From the IMG/VR virus record IMGVR_UViG_2681813236_000002: a DNA stretch of 19,149 nucleotides. One strand, 5' to 3'. The stretch is from a virus. Taxonomy: Duplodnaviria > Heunggongvirae > Uroviricota > Caudoviricetes. Position 1 is the stretch's first letter; the number at the start of each line of letters is the position of its first letter. Made by a program: the position numbers. Shown one piece after another: positions 9,001 to 12,000 of the stretch.

Positions 9001-12000
9001 CTCAATAAAATAAGCCTCCACTCCCAGCAACATCTTTGTATAACCAACACGGGCAGATTTAATCAGGTTAACCGTGCGAATCAGATCGTTGCCCATACAG
9101 TTCATGATGCCAACCTGAAACGGCAGTGTTTCCCACCGCCCCGGGGTATAAGACGACTCTTTAGGAAGGTAATAATGTTTATTGGCCCACTGAACTGTCG
9201 TCAGTGGAACAGGAATAATGAGAGATAAAAGCCCTGTAGCTATCGCACCGGCTGCATTAGCTGCCTTCTGCGCGTCTGAAATCATCGATCCACCCGCCCA
9301 CGTTTTCACCGGCCTTAGCTGCAACATTGGAGGCTTTCGCGATTTCAGTTTTCACCACATCAAGGTGTGATGGTGAAATGTCCGGATATTTACGCTGTAA
9401 TGTCAACGGCACACGCACAAGTATCCCCGAAATCTCCTGTGCCACACGTTGCAGAATGAAGGTAAACAGTTCAGTTTCCAGCACTACTCCGTCTTCACGG
9501 GCATTTTTCAGTTCCTGCGCATCTGCCTGCGCTTTTGTGAGCCTGTAGCGTTCATAGTCAATGGTGCCGGGTTGTAAATCTGACTCCGCTGCCGCACGCA
9601 AATCGTCCAGTTCTTTGCGGAGCTTTTCGTTTTCGATATCAGTTTCCCTCTGCGCATACCACTGAATTGCCATGGCAGTATCAAATACAGATTCAATGCC
9701 CTTACTACCTTTGGAGGCGCAAGGGAGTCCCTGAGACTGCCAGCGTTCAATCGTCCGCGGGTCCACGTTGAAAATTTCGGCAAGCCTCTTTTTATTAACC
9801 TTCATGAAAACAACCCATTATCAAATACAAGGCCCGACATGAAAACGCCAGAAAAAGGCATTTTCGGACACTTTCATGTCGGACCTTTACGGATGAAATA
9901 TTAAAAAAAACAAAAAGTTATATTCGAGAAGTACCGACACGATTTTCCCTGAAAAATTTTCATAAATAGTGAAAAACCGCGAGGTCTCCGCCCCGTAACG
10001 CTCCGGATCGCCGAAAAGGACCCGAAAATGATAATACATATCAATTACACTTAAAGGGGGGGTAATTTGTTCACATCAACACTCCGGACCCAATGGCCTT
10101 CTACTCTGGTTTTGCCATAAAATAGTCCTGATACATATTCATATCAGTTAGTCATATACGGAAAAAATATGGGCATTACTATTTTCAGCAGTGAAATACA
10201 GGATGTTGATAGCGAAGCGATGTACAAGAGCTGGCTAGCGACCCATTCCGATGGATTCGTTATTAATCTGCTTAAGTCGGCCAGCGGGAAAGGCAGAACA
10301 AGTGATGCCAGATTTACGCGGATTCATCGAGCCTCATGCAAATCAATCAACCCGTTAATCAGTCCTAAAAATCACGCCAGCTTTACTACTGGCCGATACC
10401 AAAAAGTATGTGTTCTTACGCTTGACGAGGCCGAGTCCACCGCAGGCCAACTAACAGGACTGCCAACCATCCAGAGATGTCATTGGTGTATATAAGATAC
10501 TGCCGTTACGATGGACCTGCCCATTGTGATGGCAACAAAAAACCGCCCGGAGGCGGCTTACCGATAGGATCTGACTATTTATAGATGTCCATCTTATCCA
10601 AAAAATCCTTTAAAGATTTTTCAAAATTCACCTTACTTTCGGTGTAAGAATAATAATTTTGAAAATGTGTATCCAAATCGTTTAGCGCATCTTTTTGGGC
10701 GCTAGTCAGATCATCAACTACGGCATACCCCAAGTATTTGAGCTGTAGATACAGTTCCGATAACTTTTCGTGCATTAACCATTCATCAATATAGTCTTGA
10801 TTTTTTTGGCTAGCCAATACTTCAAAATTAGGTGACTTGGAAACAACCTGACCGTTAGTAACATTCTTGCTTGTGAATGTTTTTGGCATTAGCCCTACTT
10901 CTACATACAGCTTACCTGCTGCTTTTTTGATCTCACGTTTAGCTTTTACTTTCTCTTGTGATTTCCAAGTGCCCATTGCGTAGATAGCTACGCCTAAGGT
11001 TATTGCAGAGAGCACTACAGAAACCCAAGAGGCAATCGCTGAAGTTTTCGTCCATTCTAAAGACTCCCACGCGGCCCTCGCTGCTGACTTAGCAGTCTCG
11101 ATATTTTGGTAATCTAACCAATCCCGTATCATTGATATGTATCCAACATTTGTTTATGAGTTCAGATTTTATTCATCTTTGATACGGATTGTAATTTTTT
11201 TTGTCACTGAACGCATTGTCTTTTCACATATTCCTGCAGATAACCAACCTGCTTCGTCACTGTGTCGACTCGTTCTCTGAGGGTGAAATAATCCCGTTCA
11301 GCGGAGTCAGTAAGTCGGGAGGAGGCTGCATTACCCACACCGGAGGCGGTGGTGGCTTCACGCACTGACTGACAGACTGCTTTGATGTGCAACCGACGAC
11401 GACCAGCGGCAACATCATCACGCAGAGCATCATTTTCAGCTTTCGCATCAGCTAACTCCTTCGTGTATTTTGCATCGAGCGCAGCAACATCACGCTGACG
11501 CATCTGCATGTCAGTAATTGCCGCGTTCGCCAGCTTCAGTTCTCTGGCATTTTTGTCGCGCTGGGCTTTGTAGGTAATGGCGTTATCACGGTAATGATTA
11601 ACAGACCATGACAGGCAGACGATGATGCAGATAATCAGAGCGGAGATAATCGCGGTTACTCTGCTCATACCTCAATCTCTCTGACCGTTCCGCCAGCTTC
11701 TTTGAATTTTGCAATCAGGTTGTCAGCCTTATGCTCGAACTGACCATAACCAGCGCCCGGCAGTGAAGCCCAGATATTGCTGCAACGGTCGATTGCCTGA
11801 CGAATATCACCGCGGTCAATCATCGGCAAAGCGCCACGCTCTTTAATCTGCTGCAATGCCACAGCGTCCTGACTTTTGGGAGAGAAGTCTTTCAGGCCAA
11901 GCTGCTTACGGTAAGCATCCCACCAACGGGAAAGAAGCTGGTAACGTCCGGCGGCTGTTGATTTGAGTTTGGGGTTTAGCGTGACAAGTTTGCGAGGGTG

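What the first reader, a model, noticed from the sequence alone, without database searches (positions are those of the whole stretch)
10169..10495. Opposite-strand 108-aa ORF abutting cos at the bor position
This is the only plus-strand candidate gene in the window. It is oriented against the late operon exactly as bor is in lambda, but the product has no signal peptide or lipobox and is not Bor-like. It converges on the moron gene across a shared hairpin region. It could be a second cargo gene or part of a two-gene accessory locus, but the RBS is weak and I see no compelling promoter, so it may not be expressed.
Basis: partly seen in the sequence, partly recalled or inferred. Interest (0 to 1): 0.5.

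Follow-up and report, generated by a model that had tools for sequence, protein, structure and literature searches.

The report
Conserved antisense prophage gene beside cos
The 108-codon plus-strand ORF next to cos is a real, selectively maintained prophage accessory gene that encodes a small, basic, probably zinc-binding protein from an uncharacterised domain family; what it does remains an inference.

Summary
The ORF is at 10169-10495 as described and is the only plus-strand gene in a lambda/21-type prophage segment. It is not a remnant. It is intact in all 13 close relatives. Homologues at 48-64% identity occur in Klebsiella, Leclercia, Citrobacter, Salmonella and Yersinia prophages, with saturated synonymous sites and median dN/dS about 0.15.

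It almost always occupies the same slot: antisense to the late operon, first gene beside the packaging site or small-terminase gene, whatever the terminase type. The window keeps a 5-codon relic of a pac-type terS start exactly 50 nt upstream, so the module came from a pac-type phage.

A promoter-like site (TTGCCA-16-CATATT; 10/12 matches in relatives) and a conserved 14-bp 3' hairpin frame the gene. The neighbouring 185-aa gene is an independent, hypervariable cargo, not a partner.

The protein matches no Pfam, NCBIfam, PHROG or PADLOC family and no PDB or BFVD fold, despite a confident model (pLDDT 90.6). It belongs to a sparse family with conserved W22, G29, H53, C57, K79, C81 and a C-terminal Cys pair. 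That family is mostly standalone, but is sometimes fused to HNH or other nuclease effectors.

Best reading: a moron encoding a zinc-dependent nucleic-acid-binding module. Biochemical function is inferred, not shown. Interest is moderate.

The parts
9982..9993 (.). cosN 12-nt cohesive end (reverse complement GGGCGGAGACCT). This is the right end of the virion chromosome and gives the position of the gene.
   Evidence: The phage 21 records (OL657228.1, X02501.1) begin at window 9993 on the minus strand at 99% identity. Sequence read.
10017..10023 (-). cosQ heptamer (GGGTCCT on the minus strand).
   Evidence: cosQ is annotated 24-30 nt from the right end of phage 21. The sequence was read at the same offset in the window.
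10080..10118 (-). Decayed 5' stub of a pac-type small-terminase gene (MAKPE*KAIGSGV), showing that the module came from a pac-type phage.
   Evidence: Intact terS genes of relatives start MAKPDWGALQQRF or MTKPDWEAIESAY at the same place. The gap from the terS start to the ORF's ATG is 50 nt in the window and 45-52 nt in relatives.
10112..10139 (+). Predicted sigma-70 promoter: -35 TTGCCA (10112-10117), 16-nt spacer, -10 CATATT (10134-10139).
   Evidence: Consensus scan gives 9/12. The same position in ten other lineages reads TTGCCA-16-TATATT or TATAGT (10/12), reached by 0-1 of 200 shuffles. Prediction only. In pac-type phages the -35 overlaps the terS start codon, which confounds its conservation.
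10160..10162 (+). Weak Shine-Dalgarno (GGA), 6 nt before the ATG.
   Evidence: Sequence. Most other lineages carry GGAG at the same place.
10169..10495 (+). 108-aa protein gene: a basic, soluble protein with conserved H53, C57, C81, C104 and C107.
10501..10534 (+). Conserved 14-bp stem-loop directly after the stop codon, probably the 3' end structure of the ORF's mRNA.
   Evidence: The plus-strand RNA folds at -33 kcal/mol (z = -6.0). The minus strand is interrupted (z = -1.8). The element is present in at least 11 lineages with 90% of cells paired and 4 pairs changed on both sides, but this is not significant against shuffles.
10540..10559 (-). Intrinsic terminator for minus-strand transcripts of the neighbouring cargo gene. 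It has no U-run on the plus strand.
   Evidence: Terminator scan: 8-bp stem, 5 G-C pairs, T-run on the minus strand. Sequence.

Best explanation
SHOWN. The ORF is a genuine protein-coding accessory gene (a moron) of lambdoid prophages. It is a self-contained unit: a promoter-like site, an SD, the ORF and a 3' stem-loop. It lies antisense to the late operon as the first gene beside the packaging site. It travels as a module between phages with different terminases and lysis cassettes. In the window it still carries a 5-codon stub of the pac-type terS gene it used to face. It has no fixed partner gene. The slot between it and Rz is a hotspot for variable cargo.

INFERRED. Because it is antisense to the Q-dependent late transcript and has its own sigma-70-like promoter, it is most likely transcribed from the repressed prophage, and possibly early after infection, rather than during late lytic growth. 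Its product is a small, basic (pI 8.8-10), cytoplasmic single-domain protein. The conserved His53, Cys57 and C-terminal Cys104/Cys107 pair, with Cys81 nearby, most likely hold one zinc ion. In a minority of relatives the same domain sits N-terminal to HNH (McrA-like, HNH_2) and NOV_C nuclease domains. That is the place where type IV restriction enzymes carry their DNA or modification-recognition module. I therefore propose that the phage protein is a free-standing nucleic-acid-binding module, perhaps recognising a DNA feature through conserved aromatic and basic residues (Y19, W22, Y77, K79). It would act in phage-host or phage-phage conflict, for example by binding incoming or resident DNA.

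I put the gene-level statement at about 0.9 and the biochemical mechanism at about 0.35. The single confidence value given is for the whole statement.
For: Real gene:
- The frame is intact in 8 E. coli genomes and 5 IMG/VR contigs, with 6 synonymous and 3 non-synonymous changes.
- Eight protein clusters at 52-98% identity share an invariant block SDxRFTRIHRAxCKxINPL.
- dS is saturated, and median dN/dS is 0.15 where computable.
- A 49%-identical allele sits in the same slot in 54 of 5426 E. coli genomes.
- The exact protein is deposited as 'hypothetical protein [E. coli]'.

Slot:
- The gene faces terS or cos in nearly all loci.
- Of 62 loci, 21 have an intact pac-type terS 45-52 nt away, 23 have terS stubs, and 13 are beside cosQ without a stub.

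Transcription unit.

Solo gene and cargo hotspot:
- The downstream neighbour is hypervariable.
- Neighbours include PDC-S47 (E 3e-24) and an HNH protein.

Domain family:
- 212 representatives at E<=1e-3, about two thirds standalone.
- W22, G29, H53 and K79 are invariant. F6, Y19, V31, N33, C57, T73, Y77, C81, C104 and C107 are at least 90% conserved.
- 109 of 135 domains keep the full H-C-C-C-C pattern. C81 is the site most often replaced while the others stay.
- Fusions are HNH or HNH_2 in 13 proteins, NOV_C in 2, plus SIMPL, kinase, YgjP peptidase and HTH.
- The HNH parts match McrA-type type IV and phosphorothioate-dependent enzymes.

Background on HNH fusions with N-terminal reader domains: abstracts of PMC7461809 and PMC11037411.

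Structure and chemistry:
- Confident fold: pLDDT 90.6, pTM 0.85.
- Basic and soluble.
Against: - No expression data exist. The promoter is a 9/12 consensus match and the SD is weak in this allele.
- In pac-type phages the -35 and spacer overlap the terS start codon and SD. Their conservation is therefore not independent evidence for a promoter.
- Seven of 8 RefSeq annotations of this allele do not call the gene.
- Zinc binding and nucleic-acid binding are inferred only from residue conservation, charge and domain architecture.
- Most family members are standalone and sit in heterogeneous, non-defence contexts.
- Nuclease fusions are a minority of the family.
Confidence: 0.4

Rival explanations
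1. It is an anti-restriction decoy. The gene sits 176 nt from the right chromosome end, which by established lambda biology is the last DNA packaged and the first injected. It could be expressed immediately on entry. As a free copy of the recognition domain of host HNH-type (type IV-like) nucleases, it would compete for their DNA targets or poison their assemblies.
For: - The position is at the extreme right end, with the promoter intact on linear DNA.
- The domain is shared with McrA-like and HNH_2 nuclease fusions.
- The phage carries its own Dam-family methyltransferase, so its DNA is modified.
Against: - In the pac-type relatives, which appear to be the ancestral context, there is no fixed chromosome end, yet the gene keeps the same slot.
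- There is no match to any known anti-defence family.
- HNH fusions with this domain were found only in environmental metagenomes, not in enterobacteria.
- The weak SD is odd for a protein needed fast and in quantity.
Confidence: 0.15
2. It is a packaging-linked or late-gene regulator. The protein binds DNA or RNA near cos, pac or terS and modulates terminase expression or packaging. Alternatively, transcription from its promoter insulates terS and the head genes from read-through in the lysogen.
For: - It is tightly and repeatedly linked to the terS start or cos across unrelated terminase types.
- The divergent 50-nt control region is shared with terS.
- A conserved palindromic element lies just downstream.
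Against: - The gene is absent from lambda, phage 21 and about 99% of E. coli genomes, including prophages with near-identical packaging modules. It is therefore dispensable for packaging.
- It works beside three or more unrelated terminase and packaging-site types.
- The wobble pairs in the hairpin favour an RNA structure on the gene's own transcript, not a protein operator.
Confidence: 0.1
3. It is one half of a two-gene accessory system with the convergent 185-aa membrane protein (10575-11132).
For: The two genes are adjacent and convergent. The 185-aa gene was found by DNA search in E. coli only beside this ORF, in 2 genomes.
Against: - The ORF occurs without the 185-aa gene in 6 of 8 E. 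coli genomes and in all other lineages.
- Neighbours there are unrelated proteins of 95 to 287 aa, an IS3 transposase, or Rz itself.
- The 185-aa gene is AT-rich (35-40% GC against about 46%) and has its own terminator.
Confidence: 0.05
4. It is a non-coding or decaying remnant whose open frame is fortuitous.
For: - The SD is weak.
- The promoter match is modest.
- PGAP omits the gene in 7 of 8 RefSeq genomes.
- A decayed terS stub lies next to it.
Against: - The frame is intact in every close relative.
- Protein-level conservation extends to 48% identity across six genera, with saturated dS.
- The AlphaFold model is confident.
- 212 distant family representatives share the same invariant residues.
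Confidence: 0.03

Closest known systems
Lambda and phage 21 Bor (Iss-like outer-membrane lipoprotein)
   Same: A small accessory gene in the Rz-to-cos interval, transcribed against the late operon. By established knowledge, Bor is expressed from the prophage.
   Different: The ORF has no signal peptide or lipobox and no sequence relationship. It is a cytoplasmic, basic Cys/His protein. It sits at the cos or terS-proximal end of the interval, not next to Rz.
Morons of HK97/HK022-type lambdoid phages (an independent promoter-gene-terminator unit inserted between conserved genes)
   Same: It has its own promoter-like site and 3' hairpin, and it shows presence/absence polymorphism between otherwise similar phages.
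   Different: Its GC content is close to the phage average rather than deviant. It is unusually faithful to a single slot beside the packaging site across cos and pac phages. Expression in lysogens is untested.
N-terminal DNA or modification-recognition domains of type IV HNH restriction enzymes (EcoKMcrA NEco; SRA or SBD of ScoMcrA; wH of HhiV4I)
   Same: In fused relatives the domain occupies the same N-terminal position, ahead of McrA-like HNH or HNH_2 domains. Background comes from the abstracts of PMC7461809 and PMC11037411.
   Different: The model resembles no solved structure in the PDB libraries searched. The phage protein has no nuclease domain. DNA binding is not shown.
Pfam DUF6233 (PF19746; function unknown)
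   Same: This is the only recurrent weak Pfam hit of the family: 8 of 84 members, over the H-x3-C stretch.
   Different: All hits fall below the gathering score (best E 0.014). The window protein itself gives no hit. DUF6233 is itself uncharacterised, and no paper mentions it.

Membership tests
Bor/Iss lipoprotein | N-terminal signal peptide with a lipobox cysteine | tested here: not met
   The N-terminus is MGITIFSSEIQD. The maximum 19-residue hydropathy is 0.63. The first Cys is at residue 57.
Bor/Iss lipoprotein | Sequence match to the Bor family profile | tested here: not met
   No Pfam family matches at E<=1. NCBIfam and PHROGs give none either.
Moron (independent accessory transcription unit in a lambdoid phage) | Own promoter upstream of the gene | tested here: inconclusive
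   The site scores 9/12 in the window and 10/12 at the same position in ten lineages. It is a prediction only, and it is confounded by the overlapping terS start codon and SD.
Moron (independent accessory transcription unit in a lambdoid phage) | Own terminator or 3' end structure | tested here: inconclusive
   A stable, conserved 14-bp hairpin follows the stop codon on the plus strand (z = -6). No U-run follows it or the second hairpin on this strand.
Moron (independent accessory transcription unit in a lambdoid phage) | Presence/absence polymorphism among otherwise related phages | tested here: met
   The gene is absent from phage 21 and PhiR57_1, which have the same cos/Nu1. This allele is in 8 of 5426 E. 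coli genomes and the second allele is in 54 of 5426.
Moron (independent accessory transcription unit in a lambdoid phage) | Expression from the repressed prophage | not testable with these tools
   This needs strand-specific RNA-seq, 5' RACE or a reporter in a lysogen.
Type IV (McrA-like) HNH restriction endonuclease | HNH catalytic domain | tested here: not met
   There is no HNH match in the 108-aa protein. Only distant relatives carry HNH C-terminal to the shared domain.
Pfam DUF6233 (PF19746) | Score at or above the gathering threshold (27.6 bits) | tested here: not met
   The window protein has no hit. The best family member reaches E 0.014, and P0015 scores 19 bits.
Uncharacterised W-G-H-C-K-C-CxxC domain family (defined here) | Invariant W22, G29, H53, K79 and conserved F6, Y19, V31, N33, C57, T73, Y77, C81, C104, C107 | tested here: met
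   All are present in the window protein. The profile search found 212 representatives at E<=1e-3.
Zinc-binding domain | Metal bound by conserved His/Cys ligands | not testable with these tools
   The ligand-like pattern H-x3-C ... C ... C-x(1-2)-C is kept in 109 of 135 domains.
Known anti-phage defence or anti-defence families (PADLOC, PHROGs) | Profile match | tested here: not met
   PADLOC gives no hit. PHROGs gives only E 0.29.

The most novel reading that the evidence does not exclude
The protein represents a new zinc-dependent nucleic-acid (possibly modified-DNA) reader fold. Bacteria fuse this fold to HNH or REase-like effectors, and lambdoid phages carry it as a free module beside their packaging site. 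There it would serve either to blunt such nucleases or to mark or exclude foreign DNA. That would make it a previously unrecognised phage counter-defence or exclusion factor, and a new recognition domain for restriction-type enzymes.
Probability: 0.15. Interest if true: 0.7.

Novelty: new member of a known kind. Interest (0 to 1): 0.4.

Why it matters
If the inference holds, the work has four consequences.

- It adds a conserved but largely unannotated gene to the lambdoid accessory repertoire.
- It defines a sparse, structurally unmatched Cys/His domain family that some bacteria attach to nuclease effectors.
- It marks the lysis-to-packaging junction as a two-part locus: a constant antisense gene and a hypervariable cargo slot holding candidate defence genes.
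- The terS stub gives a clean example of module transfer from pac-type to cos-type phages.

In practical terms, RefSeq misses this allele in 7 of 8 complete genomes.

Tried and rejected
Family and structure searches that found nothing:
- Pfam, NCBIfam, PHROGs and PADLOC gave no family for the protein.
- A family profile against PDB sequences gave only a chance hit at E 1.1.
- The afdb50 library was not available.

Weak single-member hits treated as unsupported:
- ZorE (E 0.027) and IcmJ/DotN (E 0.0067). The Zorya paper describes ZorE only as an HNH nickase.

Other checks:
- Tblastn against 50,697 phage records found one true homologue, in Klebsiella phage ST846-OXA48phi9.2.
- Rfam found no RNA family in 9700-11300.
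- Covariation in the 3' hairpin is suggestive but not above shuffles.
- I considered a LexA-box reading of CTGATA-N8-TATCAG over the -10. I dropped it because the spacing is wrong and it is confined to this clade.
- Contexts of distant standalone members show no common partner: IS91/TumE, near DruA, aroB-argH, LigD-Ku.
- Literature searches for DUF6233 and for antisense morons beside terS found nothing specific.
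Full report
**Setting.** The window is a lambda/phage-21-type prophage segment in which every recognisable gene lies on the minus strand.
- Structural genes: tail tube V, U, Z, head-tail attachment protein, FI, major capsid E, D, C protease, portal.
- Packaging genes: TerL (7357-9327) and Nu1 (9257-9805).
- Lysis genes: Rz (11204-11668), lysozyme (11665-12141) and holin (12145-12495).
- Regulatory and replication genes: Q, DUF968, KilA-N, RusA, a LexA-DNA-binding-domain protein, a Dam-family methyltransferase, a replication protein and Rha.

Window 9800-9993 is 99% identical to the left end of phage 21, whose records begin at window 9993. 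The cohesive end is therefore 9982-9993. cosQ is 10017-10023. No tRNA genes are present.

**Observation.** The ORF is at 10169-10495, starts with ATG and encodes 108 aa. It is the only plus-strand gene. It starts 176 nt from the cos nick and converges on a 185-aa minus-strand gene (10575-11132).

**Is it a gene?** Yes, on four grounds.
- Close relatives. By megablast the region is present in only 8 of 5426 complete E. coli genomes. The frame is intact in all eight and in five IMG/VR contigs. The only differences are 6 synonymous and 3 non-synonymous substitutions, plus one stop-to-CAA change that extends the product to 122 aa.
- Annotation. RefSeq annotates the gene only in that extended case. 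The exact protein is nevertheless deposited many times as 'hypothetical protein [Escherichia coli]'.
- Distant relatives. A search of 5.8 billion proteins returned eight clusters at 52-98% identity from Citrobacter, Yersinia, Salmonella and Leclercia. Tblastn found one isolated phage, Klebsiella phage ST846-OXA48phi9.2. The alignment has 43 invariant columns, including the uninterrupted block FTRIHRA, C57, K58, INPL, FTT, YQK, C81, TGL, C104 and C107.
- Selection. Synonymous sites are saturated between lineages. Where dS can be estimated, median dN/dS is 0.15.

A second allele, 49% identical, occupies the same slot in 54 of 5426 E. coli genomes and is annotated there as hypothetical.

**Position.**
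- In the Klebsiella phage, the gene is on the strand opposite the late operon, between the lysis or accessory genes and the small terminase gene.
- The same holds in Leclercia, Citrobacter and Yersinia contigs and in 41 IMG/VR contigs.
- Of 62 loci analysed, 21 have an intact pac-type terS (Terminase_2 or another type) starting 45-52 nt upstream and divergently. Another 23 keep only a stub of that terS start. Thirteen, the 49% allele, sit beside cosQ without a stub.
- The window belongs to the stub class. Read on the minus strand, 10118-10080 gives MAKPE*KAIGSGV, against MAKPDWGALQQRF or MTKPDWEAIESAY in intact genes. The gap to the ORF's ATG is the same 50 nt.
- The module therefore came from a pac-type phage and was grafted next to cos.
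- It has also been reshuffled among packaging modules since then. The closest E. coli relatives of the ORF (97-99% DNA identity) carry a Nu1 only 53% identical to the window's 21-type Nu1.

**Transcription signals.**
- The scan finds TTGCCA (10112-10117), 16 nt, CATATT (10134-10139), a 9/12 match.
- Ten other lineages have TTGCCA-16-TATATT or TATAGT (10/12) at the same distance from the ATG. This score is reached by 0-1 of 200 shuffles.
- Caveat: in pac-type phages the -35 overlaps the terS start codon and the spacer overlaps its SD, so conservation there is not independent evidence.
- The SD is GGAG in most lineages but only GGA in the window's clade.
- Directly after the stop codon lies a 14-bp stem (10501-10514/10521-10534). 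It is very stable in the plus-strand RNA (-33 kcal/mol for the 86-nt segment, z = -6.0) and interrupted in the minus-strand RNA (z = -1.8), because three of its pairs are G-U.
- The element recurs in at least 11 lineages whose proteins are only about 50% identical. Ninety percent of cells are paired and 4 pairs are changed on both sides, but this does not exceed shuffles.
- The second hairpin (10540-10559) has its T-run on the minus strand. It is the terminator of the neighbouring cargo gene.

**Neighbour.**
- The 185-aa gene encodes a single-pass membrane protein (phrog_6169, unknown function). It gives a weak PD-Lambda-6 hit at E 0.003, over its single hydrophobic stretch.
- It is AT-rich and is present in only 2 of the 8 E. 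coli genomes.
- Elsewhere the position is occupied by unrelated genes:
  - a 95-aa and a 179-aa protein;
  - proteins of 162, 138 and 149 aa;
  - a trypsin-like protease;
  - a PDC-S47 candidate defence protein (E 3e-24);
  - a MazG-like protein plus an HNH protein;
  - an IS3 transposase;
  - or Rz directly.
- The ORF is therefore a solo gene that flanks a cargo hotspot, not half of a pair.

**The protein.**
- It is basic (pI 8.8; 8.6-10.0 in homologues) and has no hydrophobic segment.
- No Pfam, NCBIfam, PHROG or PADLOC family matches.
- A profile search of 1.84 billion representatives found 212 proteins at E<=1e-3. About two thirds are standalone proteins of 90-110 aa.
- Across 84-135 diverse members, W22, G29, H53 and K79 are invariant. 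F6, Y19, V31, N33, C57, T73, Y77, C81, C104 and C107 are at least 90% conserved.
- 109 of 135 domains keep H53, C57, C81, C104 and C107 together. C81 is the position most often substituted while the others stay. This suggests a His-Cys3 zinc site formed by H53, C57, C104 and C107. That is an inference.
- AlphaFold2 with the 84-sequence alignment gives a confident model (pLDDT 90.6, pTM 0.85, all five models at or above 87). Its order of elements is beta-alpha-beta-alpha-beta, a long loop, then beta-alpha-beta.

**Domain partners and contexts.**
- Multi-domain relatives carry the domain N-terminal to HNH or HNH_2 (13 proteins) or NOV_C (2).
- It also occurs with SIMPL, a protein kinase, a YgjP-like peptidase, an XRE-type HTH, or as three tandem copies after a membrane helix.
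- The HNH parts resemble McrA-type type IV and phosphorothioate-dependent enzymes.
- The only recurrent weak Pfam hit is DUF6233, below threshold.
- Distant standalone members sit in heterogeneous contexts.

**Interpretation.**
- Shown: the ORF is a conserved, mobile, self-contained accessory gene (moron) that sits beside the packaging site and is antisense to the late operon.
- Inferred from orientation and promoter: it is expressed from the prophage or early after infection, not late.
- Inferred from residue conservation: it binds zinc.
- Inferred from charge, conserved aromatic and basic residues, and its position in nuclease fusions: it binds nucleic acid, in the place where type IV enzymes carry their recognition module (abstracts of PMC7461809 and PMC11037411).

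Rivals:
- An early-expressed anti-restriction decoy. This fits the leading-end position in cos phages but not the pac-type ancestors.
- A packaging-linked regulator. This fits the linkage, but the gene is absent from phages with near-identical packaging modules.
- A two-gene system. The variable neighbour argues against it.
- A remnant. The comparative data refute it.

**Verdict.** This is an ordinary kind of element, a moron at the bor interval, that carries a protein of an uncharacterised and structurally unmatched family. Interest is moderate (0.4). It would be higher if the domain proves to be a new DNA-recognition module used in restriction-type conflicts.

Noticed in passing
window 10575-11132 (-): A 185-aa single-pass membrane protein. 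It is AT-rich (35-40% GC), matches phrog_6169 (unknown function) and gives a weak PADLOC PD-Lambda-6 hit (E 0.003) over its single hydrophobic stretch. It has its own minus-strand terminator at 10559-10540. By DNA search it is present in only 2 of 5426 E. coli genomes, and one distant phage hit exists (Salmonella phage 118970_sal3, 31% identity).
   Followed up: partly
window 10080-10118 (-): A decayed 5' stub of a pac-type small-terminase gene (MAKPE*KAIGSGV) sits beside a cos-type packaging module. This is direct evidence of module transfer from a pac-type to a cos-type phage. Longer stubs (16-25 codons) occur in Citrobacter and other loci (L016-L020, L031).
   Followed up: yes
loci L003, L009, L023, L032, L039, L040, L056, L062 (just downstream of the homologue): The slot between the ORF family and Rz is a hypervariable cargo hotspot. 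It holds a PDC-S47 candidate defence protein (E 3e-24), a trypsin-like protease, a MazG-like protein next to an HNH protein with a type IV-like HNH, a DUF2513-annotated protein and an IS3 transposase that truncates the ORF homologue in L062.
   Followed up: partly
window 10056-10062: A poly-G tract between cosQ and the terS stub. Its length differs among the close relatives (7 to 10 G in the alignment). This could be real slippage or assembly noise.
   Followed up: no
L001-L008 (RefSeq E. coli genomes): PGAP omits the gene in 7 of 8 complete genomes that carry this allele. It calls the gene only where a TAA-to-CAA change extends it to 122 aa (WP_096987142.1). The 49%-identical allele is annotated in all listed genomes. 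One genome also has a probably spurious 43-aa 'DNA-packaging protein' CDS across cos (L003 2943-3074).
   Followed up: partly
window 10298-10300 (codon 44) and 10478-10489 (codons 104-107): The window protein has Thr44 where almost every relative has Lys (KSD motif). Its clade has CHWC (CxxC), where the other prophage homologues have CxC. CxxC is the commoner spacing in the wider family (92 against 26).
   Followed up: partly
window 7357-9805 compared with L001-L008: Mosaicism across cos. The window has phage-21-type Nu1 and terminase. The genomes sharing 96-99% identity over 10000-10548 have a Nu1 only 53% identical and a TerL only 67% identical, so a recombination junction lies at or near cos.
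   Followed up: partly
window 9997-10007 and 10078-10088: An 11-nt direct repeat (AACGCTCCGGA / AACACTCCGGA) brackets the cosQ-containing segment and ends at the terS stub. It may be microhomology at the graft junction, or it may be chance.
   Followed up: no
window 16128-17137 (-): The prophage encodes a Dam-family N6-adenine methyltransferase (16451-17137). A protein with a LexA DNA-binding domain (16128-16520) is called in an overlapping frame. The start of the methyltransferase ORF (GTG at 17137) may be over-extended.
   Followed up: no
NZ_CP174001.1 (E. coli SZQ1, 43,337-bp 'plasmid'), positions 73-573: The 49% allele lies at the very start of a 43-kb record filed as a plasmid. This is probably a circularised or linear lambdoid phage genome opened at cos.
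   Followed up: no
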